64,000 nt of DNA from Escherichia phage RB43: sequence record NC_007023.1, one strand, 5' to 3'. Below the pieces are notes generated by a model. The model did no database searches. It had not been told where the DNA came from and saw only the letters and a program-made list of their open reading frames with translations. Positions 7,662 to 48,371 of this stretch are shown one piece after another. Numbering within the stretch: the stretch's first letter is position 1; each line of letters starts with the position of its first letter. The translations under genes were made by a program, and so were the position numbers.

Positions 7662-7829
7662 GAGCGAAGCGAACACACGAACGAAGTGAGTGTTTGGTAA
7701 CTCAACTACAGAACTACATAATTATATTTTAATATTTTATATATAGAGAAAAATGTAGTTTTTGGTATACTTTTTGTACAGATGTTAACTATCCGTCTTC
7801 GCTTCGCTTGACGGAACTCGCTTCGCTCG
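7662..7829. repeat. dyad-symmetric intergenic element, copy A
   Basis: Arms GAGCGAAGCGAA...CGAACGAAGTGAGTG / CTCGCTTCGCTCG around a 57-bp core (7712-7768) identical to 42423-42479; core is itself palindromic (AACTACAT...ATGTAGTT). Confidence 0.75.
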
Positions 7830-7903
7830 TAACCTTGAAAAAGTTATTGATCAATTCAATAAATAGGTATATCATACCCATACTTTCAAAAGAGATTGAA
7901 AAC

Positions 7904-14354: not shown

Positions 14355-16269
14355 ATGGCTACCGTAAAGAAACAAATTAATCAGATCCCCGATATTTTTG
14401 TCGGGGCTACTTTTGATGAAATCAAATCGGAGTTTGATTAACTGGCTCCGAGGTCAGGACGAATTCAAAGATTATGATTTCTCTGGCTCGCGTATGAACG
14501 TGCTTGTTGACCTGCTGTCTTACGCGACATTGTATATTCAACAGATGGGTAACAGTGCTCTATTCGAATCATTTATTCGAACTGCGGCGCTTCGTAGTTC
14601 TGTTGTGCAACATGCTCAGGATTTTGGTTATATGCCGGATTCCCGTACTGCTGCAAACACTTCGATTCTGATTACAGCAAATAACCCACTGAACCCAACT
14701 TCAATTCGTATTCCTCGTGGTACGAAATTCATTGGTACAGTAAAAGATACGAACAGCTTCCCGTTTGTTGTGTCTGATGACGTTGTAATCGTTCGTGATA
14801 AAGATAACAACTATGTGTCGATGCTGAATATCGTACAGGGGCGTTTGGTTCGTACCGAAGTAATCTATGATGGTTCTACTATCCTGATCCGAGATCCGAA
14901 CATTGACCGTAGTCAGGTTCGAGTGACGATCAACGGCGCACAGTGGGACGATTGGACAAACGAAAGTATCGTTAACGCAACGGGCGCAAGTACCGTTTTC
15001 TATATGCGTGAAACGGTAGACGGACATACAGAGGTTTATTTCGGTGAAGGTGAGACAAGTCAACAGGTCGCGGGTGGTGCTCTTACCGCTGACTATATCG
15101 GGGGCTTGAAACCTGCAAACGGTTCTGTCGTTGTTATTGAATACATTTCAACCAACGGCGAAGAAGCAAACGGTGCTGAAAACTTTGTTTACGTGGATAC
15201 GTTGACAAACATCAGCATTACAAGTATTGTTGAGAACCCGACCAACTCTGCTGATTATGTCGGTGCTGATGGTGGTGGTGAACCGGAAGACATTGAACGA
15301 ATTCGAGAATTAGCCCCGATCATGCGTGAAACGCAGCGTCGTTGTGTTACTGCATCGGATTACGAATCATTCCTGTCGCATCGTTTCGGCTCTGTGATTC
15401 AGGCGGTTCAGTGCTTTACCGATAGTGAAAAACCTGGATATGCGTTCATCGCGGTTAAACCGAAATCAGGGTTGCGCCTAACCTCAGTACAGAAAGAGGA
15501 TATGCAAAACTATCTGGCTAAGTATAACCTTGCGACAATTACGCCGTCGATTCTCGACCCTAACTATCTGTATATCGTACAAAGCATTAAAGTCACGTAT
15601 GATATCAGTAAGTTAATCGAGTCAGAAGAATGGCTACGTGGTCAGGTTATCAATGAAATTGACAAGTATTACACTGATAACGTTGAAATTTTCAACAGAT
15701 CATTCAGTAAATCGAAGATGTTGACTTATGTCGATAACGCTGATGTGTCAATCATTGGTTCCTCTGCGACGATTAGCCTGTTGCGTGAACTGGATAACTA
15801 TTACAGTGCGCCGATGTCTGGTATTCACTTCTTAAACCAGGTTGCGTCAAGATCTGTTATTTCTAACGGGTTCAAATATACCAACGCAGATGATGATTCA
15901 TATGATGTGCGCTATGCGTCAACTGATATGGATACATCGACCGGACGTGCTAAGATTGTAATTGGCCCGTTTAAAGATGGTGATATTGCGATAACTCCGT
16001 ATGCTGGTAACGATTTTGATAAATACCCAGGGGTGACAGACAGAACGAAATACTATGAGGTTGGCTATATCGAACATTATAGCGATTTCATCAGCTTCGA
16101 TCTGGGTGTGCTTAACGTCCCAGCAGAACGCTTTAGCGCTGCATATATCGAACTGACTGCAAAACCATTGGAAGAAACCATTTTTACTCGTGATGGTTCT
16201 CTGATTGTATTTGAAAATGACCTTCGTCCTCAGTATACCACGCTGACGATGAATCCAATCAGTCAATAA
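14355..16269 (+). CDS. 6: baseplate wedge protein gp6 (needs +1 frame change near codon 26)
   Basis: ATG 14355 with AGAGGGG SD encodes MATVKKQINQIPDIFVGATFDEIK (matches T4 gp6 N-terminus) then TAA at 14439; rest of gp6 is in +1 frame from about 14434. Confidence 0.85.
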
Positions 16270-42384: not shown

Positions 42385-42543
42385 GAGCGAAGCGAATTTT
42401 CACGAACGAAGTGAGTGATAGGAACTACATAATTATATTTTAATATTTTATATATAGAGAAAAATGTAGTTTTTGGTATGGTTTTTAACCAGATGTAAAC
42501 TAACATTCACTCACTACGTTCGTTCATGTACTCGCTTCGCTCG
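42385..42543. repeat. dyad-symmetric intergenic element, copy B
   Basis: Same arms and identical 57-bp core (42423-42479) as copy A; arms form an imperfect ~34-bp inverted repeat. Confidence 0.75.
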
Positions 42544-42548
42544 TAAAT

Positions 42549-45375: not shown

Positions 45376-46296
45376 ATGAAAATTGATTACGAATTGGTAG
45401 AAGGGTTCCGTGCTCTGCCTACTAAAGAACAGAAAGGCGCACTGGCTGACTACGCTCAAAGCACCTTTGAAGTAAAATTGAACAAACAAAAATCATTCGA
45501 TAACATGCTGGCTGATCTGGAAGCTGCTGTACCAGCGGAAGAAGAAAAACCGGAACTGCTGATTGATTCCCCAGAATCCGCGATCGTTTCGTACACTGGT
45601 AGCGTTGCAATGGATGAACCTGTTGTTAACGCTCCGAACATTCCTGATGTTGTTGTCGATGTGTCGCAGGACTTTATGGATTACGTCAAAGACGTTGCGC
45701 CGGAAGTGGCTGATCAGATTAAATTAGTCCCTGATGTTGTTGTCGATGTGTCGCAGGACTTTATGGATTACGTCAAAGACGTTGCGCCGGAAGTGGCTGA
45801 TCAGATTAAATTAGTCCCTGATGTTGTTGTCGATGTGTCGCAGGACTTTATGGATTACGTCAAAGACGTTGCGCCGGAAGTGGCTGATCAGATTAAATTA
45901 GTCCCTGATGTTGTTGTCGATGTGTCGCAGGACTTTATGGATTACGTCAAAGACGTTGCGCCGGAAGTGGCTGATCAGATTAAATTAGTCCCTGATGTTG
46001 TAGAAGCGTCTGTAACCGCTTCTGACGAGTCCAAAGCTGATATGGCATGGTTGGACGGGTTTAGCCCTACAATCGTTCTGATGGGGCGTAGCGCTCGTTC
46101 TAACGGCTATTATACGTGTCCCTGGTGGATCTACGATTGGATTAAGAAAAATCCAGATTGGTACAAAGATCCTGACCAGTGTCCACACTACAGCGCACGG
46201 GATACCCTGAAATCGCTGGTGTACTACATCAAACGTGATGGTCAAGTTACTGTGCGTGAAACGCGCAACAGCAGTTTCGATACCTTCAAATTTTAG
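45376..46296 (+). CDS. hypothetical protein with 4 identical 29-aa repeats and C-terminal PWWIYD domain
   Basis: 306-aa ORF; repeat PDVVVDVSQDFMDYVKDVAPEVADQIKLV x4; C-terminal YYTCPWWIYDWIKKNPDWY. Confidence 0.6.
   Translation: MKIDYELVEGFRALPTKEQKGALADYAQSTFEVKLNKQKSFDNMLADLEAAVPAEEEKPELLIDSPESAIVSYTGSVAMDEPVVNAPNIPDVVVDVSQDFMDYVKDVAPEVADQIKLVPDVVVDVSQDFMDYVKDVAPEVADQIKLVPDVVVDVSQDFMDYVKDVAPEVADQIKLVPDVVVDVSQDFMDYVKDVAPEVADQIKLVPDVVEASVTASDESKADMAWLDGFSPTIVLMGRSARSNGYYTCPWWIYDWIKKNPDWYKDPDQCPHYSARDTLKSLVYYIKRDGQVTVRETRNSSFDTFKF
45643..45990 (+). repeat. perfect tandem repeat, 4 x 87 bp (plus 11-bp partial fifth unit)
   Basis: Units at 45643, 45730, 45817, 45904 identical by eye; in-frame inside CDS. 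Confidence 0.9.
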
Positions 46297-46745: not shown

Positions 46746-46787
46746 AGGTGAATAATGAATAAATAAAATCATGAATGTCTGAAAGAT

Positions 46788-47324
46788 TTGTCAGATGGTA
46801 AAGAAATCGAGAACGTTATATTCCTCGATATTGACGGCGTGTTAAATAATATGCGCTCTATGAAATTCGGTGAACATATGGACATCGAATGTGCGCGACA
46901 TCTACGCCGGATCGTCAACCATGCAAATTGTGATATCGTTGTTTCTTCAACGTGGCGCATTGGGAACACGACACACACCCTACGCGAAATCCTGTACCCC
47001 TGGGGCTTGTATCGCGTTATCGGTCGAACCTGTAGCAACATGGTTGGTAATTGTGTGCGTGGTGATGAAATAAAGGCGTGGATCGATACGTTCGGATGTA
47101 AGAACTACATGATCCTTGATGATGATTGTGATATGTTGCCAGAACAAAAAGATCACTTCGTCAGAACAGATCCTGAAATCGGGCTTACCGAAGAACAATC
47201 AACCTTTGCGATCCGCAATATATTTGGAGTAACAACCCCGTTTTGTCCTGAATGCAACGGCTATGGGCGCGTGAACCAATACGATAAATGCGGTAGCTGT
47301 AACGGTAAAAAATTGCGTCTATAA
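46788..47324 (+). CDS. HAD-superfamily phosphatase-like protein with C-terminal zinc ribbon
   Basis: FLDIDGVLNN (motif I), ILDDD, CPECNGYG...CGSCNG; start ambiguous (TTG 46788, or ATG 46775 if A3 run 46782-46784 is read as A2). Confidence 0.5.
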   Translation: MSDGKEIENVIFLDIDGVLNNMRSMKFGEHMDIECARHLRRIVNHANCDIVVSSTWRIGNTTHTLREILYPWGLYRVIGRTCSNMVGNCVRGDEIKAWIDTFGCKNYMILDDDCDMLPEQKDHFVRTDPEIGLTEEQSTFAIRNIFGVTTPFCPECNGYGRVNQYDKCGSCNGKKLRL

Positions 47325-47327
47325 ATA
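47320..47327 (+). promoter_or_regulatory. T4-type late promoter box TATAAATA
   Basis: Exact TATAAATA about 19 nt upstream of ATG 47346. Confidence 0.4.
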
Positions 47328-47345
47328 CAGAAAAACTAAGAGGTT

Positions 47346-47855
47346 TCAATAATGGCTACTGAAAAATGGACTACGGTTCACCCTATCCCGTGGCGTAACA
47401 CCAGCTTTACCTATCTTCCGTGGTGGATCTATGATATCATCGTTGCTGCTAATACGGCAGGTGGAGATTGGCGTGATTACGCAGAAGAAAAATATGCGAA
47501 AGAATTCGTCACGCTGAAACAAGCATACATCGACTAGACCGATGTTGATTTCATCGAATCTCGCAACGGCTACCTGTACAAACTCAGTGATTTTACTCCG
47601 GCTGATCCGGTTGTTACTATCACCCCGAAAACTGCCCCTGCTGATTTTAAAGTAGGCGATCCTGACCTTGCTGCAACCGATCTGTTTACTATCGATCCGA
47701 GCGGTACGGCTATGACTCTGACTGTGGATTCCTCTGGTCATGCGTCGATCGTTGGCGGTAAACTCCATGCTATAAGCGCTGGTGATGTTGTTGTAACGGC
47801 GACCTCCGGTTCTGTTACTGCAAACCTGACTGTAAATGTTAAAGTTGCTCCATAA
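47346..47855 (+). CDS. late gene: PWWIYD N-domain plus Big_2-type Ig-like domain, interrupted by in-frame TAG (47535-47537)
   Basis: 61-codon ORF ends at TAG; same frame continues 106 codons with ...TVDSSGHASIVGGKLHAISAGDVVVTATSGSVTANLTVNV and no start codon of its own. Confidence 0.5.
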
Positions 47856-47870
47856 CTAAGAAGGTAAAAC

Positions 47871-48371
47871 ATGCTTCTATTCGAATTCAATGATGTATTC
47901 GCGAAGTTTAGTGATGCAATTCAGGCAAAATTCGGCAAACGTCCCGAAAACATGACAGAAACAGAATACAATACTGCTGTTTCGTCCCTGGTTCGTACAG
48001 ATTTCTATGAAAAGCTGGCGATCGAGGTGTTGGGCTGGGACATGATGAAATGGGGTATGACTTATCGCGATCGCGAAGTTGGTTTCATTCTCGTCAATGA
48101 GGTTAAAAGCCCTCTGTGGGTAAACAACCAAAAAGTTGCATACATGGATAAGGTGTGTGCGGAAATGGGTATTGTGCGTCTGGATTTCTGGACGTGTAAG
48201 GATCTGAATGAACTGAAAGGTCATGCTTATCGTTGCCCTCTGATTTCTCGCAATGAGAAACATCGTCAAGCATGGGATAGCGCTGGCAAGTATCGCAGTG
48301 TATATCTGAATGATGACATGAACATCACTATTCAGGATGTGAACCGCGCCTTTGCGGATTACACACCATAA
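47871..48371 (+). CDS. hypothetical protein (166 aa)
   Basis: ORF with GAAGG SD. Confidence 0.5.
   Translation: MLLFEFNDVFAKFSDAIQAKFGKRPENMTETEYNTAVSSLVRTDFYEKLAIEVLGWDMMKWGMTYRDREVGFILVNEVKSPLWVNNQKVAYMDKVCAEMGIVRLDFWTCKDLNELKGHAYRCPLISRNEKHRQAWDSAGKYRSVYLNDDMNITIQDVNRAFADYTP

What the first reader, a model, noticed from the sequence alone, without database searches (positions are those of the whole stretch)
47346..47855. Late-promoter gene with an Ig-like (Big_2-type) domain split by an in-frame TAG
TATAAATA lies 19 nt upstream and a good SD precedes ATG 47346. After 61 codons there is TAG (47535-47537), and the same frame continues for 106 codons encoding a Big_2-like Ig domain with no start codon of its own. 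Options are an amber nonsense allele, a substitution error, or stop-codon readthrough giving a minor extended decoration protein. It may be the functional counterpart of the missing Hoc.
Basis: seen in the sequence. Interest (0 to 1): 0.6.

Follow-up and report, generated by a model that had tools for sequence, protein, structure and literature searches.

The report
Broken hoc gene in RB43 record
This is the head-decoration (Hoc) gene of coliphage RB43, interrupted in this one deposited sequence by a single-base change (TAT to TAG) that no relative shares, so it is most likely a sequencing error or a lab-stock null mutation and not a programmed readthrough signal.

Summary
TATAAATA lies at 47320-47327, GAGG at 47340-47343 and the ATG at 47352 (not 47346). 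TAG is codon 62 (47535-47537), followed by 105 in-frame sense codons and TAA at 47853-47855.

The window is the phage RB43 reference record. There the 61-aa product is already named "Hoc large outer capsid" and a 47-aa downstream remnant is RB43ORF238w.

The intact gene encodes a 167-aa Hoc-like protein. Residues 8-76 match the T4 Hoc capsid-binding domain, and a Big_2-like Ig domain follows it.

The resequenced isolate RB43-GVA, RB16 and IME-CF2 have TAT (Tyr) at codon 62. So do 24 of 25 database homologues and every related viral locus where the codon could be placed. The Tyr is conserved in T4 Hoc. The TAG removes the ESRNG capsid-contact loop.

The record looks error-rich. It differs from RB43-GVA at 37 small sites in 64 kb, and the window is the odd one at 28 of 30 sites that RB16 can polarise. 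The differences are mostly single-base indels, they cluster, and one splits the gene for baseplate protein gp6. RB43-GVA encodes only tRNA-Met, and no RNA structure flanks the stop.

Verdict: a private lesion, either a base-call error (about 0.6) or a real nonsense mutation (about 0.33). Programmed readthrough is not supported. Interest is low.

The parts
47320..47327 (+). T4-type late promoter motif TATAAATA, ending 24 nt before the ATG
   Evidence: Read directly. Invariant in RB43-GVA, RB16 and IME-CF2. There are 7 copies in the window against 3.0 expected. Function as a promoter is inferred from T4 knowledge and was not tested.
47340..47343 (+). Shine-Dalgarno GAGG, 8 nt before the ATG
   Evidence: Read directly. 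Invariant in the three closest relatives.
47352..47855 (+). hoc-like head-decoration gene: 167 codons plus TAA, interrupted at codon 62 in this record
   Evidence: Translation. phrog_11091 'Hoc-like head decoration' matches at E 3.6e-111 over 1-167. Orthologues are annotated as an uninterrupted 504-bp CDS in RB43-GVA, RB16 (hoc, RB16p224) and IME-CF2.
47373..47579 (+). Capsid-binding (anchor) domain, residues 8-76, homologous to T4 Hoc residues 293-362. Here it is N-terminal.
   Evidence: phmmer against PDB hits T4 Hoc 5vf3_Z/8t1x at E 5e-10. Foldseek of the homologue model hits 8t1x_X at E 3e-5, TM(target) 0.66. tblastn with T4 Hoc 293-362 gives E 4e-12. H10, R15, W24, W25 and D28 align with T4 H295, R300, W309, W310 and D313, which are the contact residues in PMC10385173.
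47508..47510 (+). Codon 53 GTC (Val). It is GAC (Asp) in all three close relatives. This is a second private transversion, 28 nt before the TAG change.
   Evidence: Asp (or Glu) at this column in most homologues.
47535..47537 (+). In-frame TAG (codon 62). It is TAT (Tyr) in RB43-GVA, RB16 and IME-CF2, and it aligns with Tyr348 of T4 Hoc.
   Evidence: Tyr in 24 of 25 homologues. TAT or TAC in every related viral locus where the codon could be placed. No phage record or viral contig carries the TAG allele.
47556..47570 (+). Codons 69-73, the ESRNG loop that touches all six gp23 subunits in T4. It lies downstream of the TAG, so the 61-aa product lacks it.
   Evidence: Alignment to T4 E355-G359. 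The role of the loop is taken from PMC10385173. E69, R71, N72 and G73 are invariant and S70 nearly so (24 of 25) in homologues.
47601..47852 (+). C-terminal Big_2-like Ig domain, about residues 84-167
   Evidence: AlphaFold model of the 89%-identical P0004 is all-beta from residue 85, with pLDDT above 90. Foldseek hits Big_2 domains 7quz, LigA, LigB and the lambda gpV Ig domain. Pfam HMMs do not detect it.
47712..47855 (+). 47-aa remnant ORF, annotated RB43ORF238w in the public record. It is the second half of the Ig domain.
   Evidence: Exact look-up gives AAX78760.1 / YP_239214.1.

Best explanation
The locus is the hoc orthologue of coliphage RB43. It is a late gene for a 167-aa capsid-decoration protein. 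The N-terminal ~80 residues are the Hoc capsid-anchor domain, and the C-terminal ~85 residues form one Big_2-like Ig domain that would project from the centre of gp23 hexamers.

In this deposited sequence, and nowhere else, codon 62 reads TAG instead of the conserved TAT (Tyr). The change is not a programmed signal. It is most likely a base-call or assembly error in an error-rich Sanger-era record, so the real phage probably makes the full-length protein.

If the sequence is taken at face value, translation stops after 61 residues. That fragment lacks the beta-strands and the ESRNG loop needed to bind the capsid, and it carries no Ig domain, so the allele would be null.

Shown: the homology, the domain order, the private and derived nature of the TAG, the record-wide error signature, and the absence of a suppressor tRNA in the resequenced RB43-GVA genome. 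Inferred: late transcription, capsid binding, and the choice of error over mutation.
For: Identity of the record:
- The window matches RB43-GVA at 99.9-99.97%.
- Exact look-up of the 61-aa product returns AAX78759.1/YP_239213.1, 'Hoc large outer capsid [Escherichia phage RB43]', on a 180,500-bp contig.

The TAG is derived and private:
- RB43-GVA, RB16 and IME-CF2 have TAT.
- Tyr is present in 24 of 25 database homologues, and every related IMG/VR locus where the codon could be placed has TAT or TAC.
- It aligns with a Tyr of T4 Hoc.
- None of 62 matching phage records is identical across the site.
- No viral contig carries the allele.

The record is error-rich:
- Against RB43-GVA over 64 kb there are 14 substitutions and 23 single-base indels.
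- With RB16 as outgroup, the window is the odd one at 28 of 30 polarisable sites.
- The indels shift or break more than 10 ORFs that are intact in GVA. One splits baseplate gp6, essential in T4, into 28-aa and 623-aa ORFs.
- 11 of 36 gaps between differences are 50 nt or less, against 1.0 expected (P = 3e-9). The TAG change lies 28 nt from another private transversion (D53V).
- The private spectrum is 3 transitions to 8 transversions and 11 substitutions to 17 indels. Natural GVA-RB16 divergence is 1087:677 and 1764:59 (P = 0.03 and 6e-18).
- Of the 11 private substitutions, 8 are missense, 2 are nonsense and 1 is synonymous.

No readthrough machinery:
- No tRNA in the window.
- Only tRNA-Met in the whole RB43-GVA genome.
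- The flanking RNA has z = -0.67.
Against: No reads or trace files are available, so a real mutation in the sequenced stock cannot be excluded. Hoc is dispensable in T4 (established knowledge), so a nonsense allele would be tolerated in a laboratory stock.

The error argument is statistical. It shows that most private differences are technical, not that this one is. The depositors annotated the two fragments separately and did not correct the site.

The tRNA survey covered the resequenced RB43-GVA genome, not the rest of this record. RB43-GVA and the sequenced stock have separate propagation histories (PMC3157838), so some true differences must exist.
Confidence: 0.6

Rival explanations
1. Genuine nonsense (amber) mutation. 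The RB43 stock that was sequenced really carries TAT->TAG at hoc codon 62. This would be a spontaneous loss-of-function allele of a dispensable decoration gene, fixed during laboratory passage. On a non-suppressor host the capsids would lack Hoc.
For: - The TAG is one base away from the ancestral TAT.
- Hoc is non-essential in T4 (established knowledge; hoc- soc- phage is used in PMC10385173).
- RB43 stocks were kept apart for about 20 years and differ by real mutations such as gp38 Q100R (PMC3157838).
- The 315 nt downstream are identical to RB43-GVA, which fits a very recent event.
- The perfect 87-bp x4 repeat expansion in the neighbouring inh gene may be another real stock-specific difference. 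This is an inference and was not verified.
Against: The record's private differences carry a technical signature. They are mostly indels, they cluster, they are biased to transversions, and they break an essential gene. GVA has only 2 private substitutions against 11 in the window, so on a symmetric-divergence assumption only about 2 of the 11 would be real. The TAG change also lies 28 nt from another private radical change (D53V), which is the pattern of a poor read.
Confidence: 0.33
2. Programmed stop-codon readthrough or suppression. The TAG is functional and is decoded at low frequency, giving a major 61-aa product and a minor 167-aa extended decoration protein, in the manner of the Q-beta A1 readthrough protein.
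For: - The downstream frame is open for 105 codons and encodes a complete, well-folded Ig domain.
- It has no start codon of its own before 47712.
- The base after the stop is A. In E. coli this context favours suppression (my own knowledge, not tested here).
Against: - The stop is absent from every relative, including a second isolate of the same phage.
- The replaced residue is a conserved Tyr inside the anchor domain, not a domain boundary.
- The 61-aa product would lack the ESRNG loop and half the beta-sheet, so it has no plausible function as a 'major' product.
- No suppressor tRNA was found.
- No stimulatory RNA structure was found.
Confidence: 0.02
3. A functional split. The 61-aa N-terminal peptide is a stand-alone anchor-only capsid protein, like the 91-111-aa anchor-only relatives, and the downstream part is vestigial.
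For: Natural relatives exist that consist of the anchor domain alone (P0022-P0024, 91-111 aa).
Against: Those relatives keep the complete anchor, including ESRNG and the following strand. The window product ends 7 residues before that loop. The downstream Ig-coding sequence shows no decay at all relative to RB43-GVA.
Confidence: 0.02

Closest known systems
Hoc-like head decoration protein of RB43-GVA (CCK74081.1), RB16 (hoc, ADJ55528.1) and IME-CF2 (AKR16083.1); PHROG 11091
   Same: Same gene at the same position (uvsW - inh - orf - HAD phosphatase - hoc - deoxyribonucleotidase), with the same promoter, SD and start. Nucleotide identity is 98-99.6% over the gene, and the 167-codon frame is the same.
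   Different: Those records have TAT at codon 62 and GAC at codon 53. The window has TAG and GTC. Nothing else separates it from RB43-GVA in this gene.
Bacteriophage T4 Hoc (376 aa; PDB 5vf3, 8t1x)
   Same: The capsid-binding domain is homologous (residues 8-76 against T4 293-362, E 5e-10), with the ESRNG loop, the WW pair, and conserved His, Arg and Asp. It is a late gene next to inh and uvsW, and it carries an Ig-like displayed domain.
   Different: The domain order is reversed. The anchor is N-terminal here and C-terminal in T4. There is one Big_2-like Ig domain instead of three Ig-like domains, and 167 aa against 376 aa. T4 Tyr293 is Thr8 here.
Hoc-like proteins with an N-terminal anchor, such as the 511-aa protein of Enterobacter phage PG7 described by Fokine et al. 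2023 (PMC10385173)
   Same: The anchor domain is at the N-terminus with a variable displayed module after it. 511-aa relatives with the same N-terminal anchor were recovered here (L015-L018).
   Different: The displayed module there is a GDSL-type lipase/acylhydrolase, per the paper. Here it is a single Ig domain.
Classical amber (UAG) nonsense alleles of T4-type phage genes
   Same: A single-base change from a sense codon (here Tyr TAT) to TAG. It would be conditionally suppressible on supF (Tyr) hosts.
   Different: Those were selected in essential genes by mutagenesis. This one, if real, is spontaneous and sits in a dispensable gene. It may not exist outside the database record.
Programmed readthrough coat extensions, such as the Q-beta A1 protein (my own knowledge)
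   Same: The formal layout is the same: a structural ORF, an in-frame stop, then an extension with no start of its own.
   Different: In Q-beta the stop is conserved and lies at the end of a complete coat domain. Here it is unique to one record and cuts a domain in two.

Membership tests
Hoc (highly immunogenic outer capsid protein) family of T4-like phages | Capsid-binding domain homologous to T4 Hoc residues ~281-376 | tested here: met
   phmmer E 5e-10, residues 8-76 against T4 293-362. tblastn E 4e-12. Foldseek hits 8t1x_X at E 3e-5 with TM(target) 0.66, using an 89%-identical proxy model. phrog_1149 C-terminal end matches at E 2.8e-23.
Hoc (highly immunogenic outer capsid protein) family of T4-like phages | Conserved Glu-Ser-Arg-Asn-Gly loop and the Trp-Trp, His, Arg and Asp capsid-contact residues | tested here: met
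   ESRNG is at codons 69-73, with W24 W25, H10, R15 and D28 aligned to T4 W309 W310, H295, R300 and D313. Caveat: ESRNG lies downstream of the TAG, so it is encoded in frame but is not part of the 61-aa product as deposited.
Hoc (highly immunogenic outer capsid protein) family of T4-like phages | One or more Ig-like domains displayed from the anchor | tested here: met
   One Big_2-like Ig fold at residues ~84-167, by structure prediction and Foldseek. Pfam HMMs give no hit.
Hoc (highly immunogenic outer capsid protein) family of T4-like phages | T4 architecture: Ig domains N-terminal, anchor C-terminal | tested here: not met
   The anchor is N-terminal and the Ig domain C-terminal. The reversed order is already described for some Hoc-like proteins (PMC10385173). 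It therefore marks a known sub-architecture, not an exclusion from the family.
Hoc (highly immunogenic outer capsid protein) family of T4-like phages | Uninterrupted reading frame giving a full-length product | tested here: not met
   TAG at codon 62 in this record only. The frame is intact in RB43-GVA, RB16, IME-CF2 and all other relatives examined.
Hoc (highly immunogenic outer capsid protein) family of T4-like phages | Physical presence at the centre of gp23 hexamers on the mature capsid; dispensable for growth | not testable with these tools
   This needs virion proteomics or cryo-EM. No proteomic report for this clade was found in the paper library.
Programmed stop-codon readthrough genes | Stop codon conserved among relatives, with the extension under selection | tested here: not met
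   No TAG in any relative. Tyr codons TAT or TAC in 3 close genomes, 24 of 25 proteins, the related viral loci and 62 phage records.
Programmed stop-codon readthrough genes | Dedicated decoding means: a suppressor tRNA or a stimulatory RNA structure | tested here: not met
   ARAGORN finds 0 tRNAs in the window and 1 (Met, CAT) in the whole RB43-GVA genome. A 121-nt fold around the stop gives z = -0.67. The rest of this record itself was not available.

The most novel reading that the evidence does not exclude
The TAG is real in the sequenced RB43 stock, and near-cognate decoding of UAG-A by host tRNA-Tyr or tRNA-Gln yields a trace of full-length Hoc. The capsids would then carry a few Hoc-like fibres instead of a full complement. 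This would be an accidental 'dimmer switch' on head decoration that was tolerated or even favoured during laboratory passage.
Probability: 0.03. Interest if true: 0.35.

Novelty: already known. Interest (0 to 1): 0.1.

Why it matters
It matters mainly as a curation point. The RB43 reference record annotates Hoc as a 61-aa fragment plus a 47-aa orphan ORF, while an independent isolate of the same phage and all relatives encode an intact 167-aa protein. Anyone who uses this record for gene-content comparisons ("RB43 lacks Hoc"), for protein-family seeds, or as evidence of recoding would be misled. The same record also appears to carry about 20 single-base indels in this 64-kb stretch that break other genes. 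No new biology follows from the TAG itself.

Tried and rejected
- Pfam scan of the repaired protein gave no family at E<=1, so the Big_2 label could not be confirmed by HMM. It was confirmed only by fold.
I modelled the 89%-identical homologue P0004 instead.
- The look-up of encoding contigs found no contig for the 61-aa product. The listing of cluster members did find it.
- A scan for a suppressor tRNA found none.
- An RNA fold around the stop was not different from shuffles. A 6-bp hairpin, ACATCG...CGATGT, brackets the TAG. It is equally present with TAT and I give it no role.
- A degenerate scan of viral contigs for any anchor domain with TAG in place of the Tyr gave one hit. Its translation shows no Hoc-like sequence, so I treat it as an unrelated chance match. 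The matching TAY pattern recovered 10 loci.
- Literature searches for virion proteomics of this clade and for a published comparison of RB43 with RB43-GVA found nothing useful.
- Re-initiation after the TAG was rejected. The first in-frame start is ATG 47712, inside the Ig domain, and its product would have no anchor.
- A second Hoc elsewhere in the genome was rejected. The T4 anchor domain finds only this gene and the Inh C-terminus in the whole RB43-GVA genome.

Full report
**1. What is in the sequence**

Reading 47100-48100 and the ORF table gives this layout:
- TATAAATA at 47320-47327
- GAGG at 47340-47343
- ATG at 47352
- 61 sense codons, then TAG at 47535-47537
- 105 further in-frame sense codons (47538-47852)
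- TAA at 47853-47855 (translation)

The next in-frame start after the TAG is ATG 47712. TATAAATA occurs 7 times in the window against 3.0 expected.

**2. Where the window comes from**

Megablast against phage records gives 99.8% identity to two records of Pseudotevenvirus RB43 isolate RB43-GVA. RB16, IME-CF2 and GuL6 match at 97.7-98.4%.

An exact look-up of the 61-aa product returns AAX78759.1/YP_239213.1, "Hoc large outer capsid [Escherichia phage RB43]", on a 180,500-bp contig. The 47-aa ORF at 47712 is AAX78760.1, "RB43ORF238w", re-named "Hoc-like head decoration" by RefSeq.

The window is therefore the RB43 reference record, and its depositors already called this gene Hoc.

**3. What the gene is**

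With Tyr restored at codon 62, the 167-aa protein matches phrog_11091 "Hoc-like head decoration" end to end (E 3.6e-111). Residues 6-82 match the C-terminal end of the large Hoc family phrog_1149.

Against PDB sequences, residues 8-76 align to T4 Hoc 293-362 (E 5e-10). The following residues align to residues that Fokine et al. 2023 (PMC10385173) describe as capsid contacts or as the loop whose mutation impairs binding:

| This protein | T4 Hoc |
|---|---|
| H10 | H295 |
| R15 | R300 |
| W24 W25 | W309 W310 |
| D28 | D313 |
| E69-G73 (ESRNG) | E355-G359 |

An AlphaFold model of the 89%-identical homologue P0004 (pLDDT 88.4) has an alpha/beta N-domain and an all-beta C-domain. [quoted passage not shown] It matches the second to Big_2 Ig domains: 7quz, LigA/LigB and lambda gpV. 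Pfam HMMs see nothing.

In RB16 the gene order is uvsW, inh, two ORFs, hoc, so the gene lies in an inh-uvsW neighbourhood. From memory, T4 hoc is in a similar neighbourhood.

In the whole RB43-GVA genome, the T4 anchor domain finds only this gene (E 1e-12) and the C-terminus of Inh (E 6e-5). This is the phage's only Hoc candidate.

The domain order (anchor first, Ig second) is the reverse of T4. N-terminal anchors are already described in the Hoc literature.

**4. Is the TAG ancestral, conserved or private?**

An alignment of 551 nt with RB43-GVA, RB16 and IME-CF2 shows TAT in all three where the window has TAG. It also shows GAC (Asp53) in all three where the window has GTC (Val). These are the only two differences from RB43-GVA in the gene.

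Further evidence that the TAG is private:
- Tyr62 is present in 24 of 25 database homologues (one has Asn) and aligns with a Tyr of T4 Hoc.
- In related IMG/VR loci the codon is TAT or TAC wherever it could be placed.
- None of 62 matching phage records is identical over a 55-nt probe centred on the TAG.
- No viral contig contains the TAG allele.
- A degenerate scan for TAG in this position of any anchor domain gave one hit, which I treat as an unrelated chance match because its translation shows no Hoc-like sequence. The TAY version recovered ten loci.

The stop is thus a derived, private, single-base (T->G) change in a conserved codon. It sits inside a folded domain: at the end of helix 46-62, just before the two strands that flank ESRNG.

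**5. Error or mutation?**

Over the whole 64 kb, the window differs from RB43-GVA by 14 substitutions, 23 single-base indels and one 261-nt repeat expansion.

*Polarity.* Using RB16 as outgroup, 30 differences could be polarised. The window is the odd one at 28 of them (11 substitutions, 17 indels) and GVA at 2.

*Broken genes.* The indels shift or break more than ten ORFs that are intact in GVA. The clearest case is gp6, the baseplate wedge protein that is essential in T4. An extra G at 14432 leaves a 28-aa ORF behind the late promoter and a 623-aa TTG-start ORF. A viable phage should not carry that.

*Clustering.* Eleven of 36 gaps between differences are 50 nt or less, against 1.0 expected (P = 3e-9). 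The TAG change and D53V are one such pair, 28 nt apart.

*Spectrum.* The private differences do not look like natural divergence between GVA and RB16:

| | Window-private | GVA vs RB16 | P |
|---|---|---|---|
| Transitions : transversions | 3 : 8 | 1087 : 677 | 0.03 |
| Substitutions : indels | 11 : 17 | 1764 : 59 | 6e-18 |

*Coding effect.* Of the 11 private substitutions, 8 are missense, 2 are nonsense and 1 is synonymous. The second nonsense change is TTA->TAA at 46765, at codon 4 of the gene immediately upstream.

This is the signature of local low-quality sequence. It makes a base-call error the most likely origin of the TAG (about 0.6).

It is not proof. Hoc is dispensable in T4, and RB43 stocks have been kept apart for about 20 years and differ by real mutations (PMC3157838). 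The 315 nt downstream of the TAG are identical to RB43-GVA, which fits either an error or a very recent event. I put a genuine amber allele at about 0.33.

**6. Readthrough**

Nothing supports a programmed event:
- The stop is not conserved (section 4).
- It cuts the anchor domain seven residues before its key loop, so the "major" 61-aa product would be non-functional.
- ARAGORN finds no tRNA in the window and only tRNA-Met(CAT) in the entire RB43-GVA genome.
- A 121-nt fold around the stop does not differ from shuffles (z = -0.67).

If the TAG is real, basal near-cognate decoding would give at most traces of full-length protein. That is an inference and was not tested.

**7. Comparison with what is known, and verdict**

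The gene is a member of the Hoc family. Its anchor domain, contact residues and displayed Ig domain all pass the tests. It has the already-described reversed domain order. It is identical, apart from two bases, to the intact orthologue of RB43-GVA.

The interruption is either an artefact of the record or an ordinary null mutation. It is already visible in public annotation as two fragment ORFs.

Novelty is "already known" and interest is low (0.1). The practical value is as a warning about this reference record.

Noticed in passing
window 45376-46296 (repeat 45643-46001): The inh gene (prohead-protease inhibitor / minor capsid protein) carries a perfect 87-bp tandem repeat in 4.1 copies, giving a 306-aa protein. 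RB43-GVA and RB16 have about one copy (219 and 218 aa). This may be a real stock-specific expansion or a cloning or assembly artefact.
   Followed up: partly
window 46096-46272: The C-terminus of Inh is a second, weaker copy of the Hoc capsid-binding domain (PWWIYD ... ETRN). tblastn with T4 Hoc 293-362 gives E 4e-5, phmmer against T4 Hoc gives E 0.005, and phrog_1149 gives E 1.6e-5. Inh and Hoc therefore appear to share an anchor module.
   Followed up: partly
window 46755-47324 (change at 46765): A second window-private stop. In the HAD-phosphatase-like gene just upstream of hoc, codon 4 is TAA here but TTA in RB43-GVA and RB16. Only a TTG-start ORF from 46788 remains.
   Followed up: partly
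window 14355-16269 (extra G at 14432): Baseplate wedge gene 6 is split by a single extra G relative to RB43-GVA and RB16. A 28-aa ORF sits behind TATAAATA 14327, followed by a 623-aa TTG-start ORF. This is almost certainly a record error, because gp6 is essential in T4.
   Followed up: yes
window 1055, 3000/3007, 3395, 6548/6575/6596, 33493/33499/33559, 42326, 50893, 53775, 54519, 55042, 55869/55876/55887, 62106/62130, 63180, 63803: Further single-base indels relative to RB43-GVA. Several occur in tight clusters of three that restore the frame (gp1 dNMP kinase, gp18 sheath, the NAPRTase-like ORF). Others frameshift small ORFs and the last codons of gp24. Wherever RB16 can polarise them, the window is the odd one.
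   Followed up: partly
window 29807: This is one of only two polarisable sites where RB43-GVA, not the window, looks derived (the other is 20377, gp8 Q316R). GVA has TGA, which ends a 197-aa ORF upstream of gene 15. The window and RB16 have TGC and read on.
   Followed up: no
window 7711-7832 and 42422-42546: A ~125-nt AT-rich intergenic repeat with two copies, one in the intergenic region downstream of the gene 3 end (~7.7 kb) and one after gene 24. A ~60-nt core is identical and contains the inverted repeat CTACAT...ATGTAG. It may be one of the mobile promoter/stem-loop cassettes described for T4-type phages.
   Followed up: no
relatives: P0001-P0025, L008-L023: Relatives keep the N-terminal anchor but swap what follows it. 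Variants are one Big_2-like Ig domain (162-172 aa), two (245-247 aa), a different Ig_3-type domain (~185 aa), nothing (91-111 aa), or a large C-terminal module (509-511 aa). This is modular display on a common capsid anchor.
   Followed up: partly
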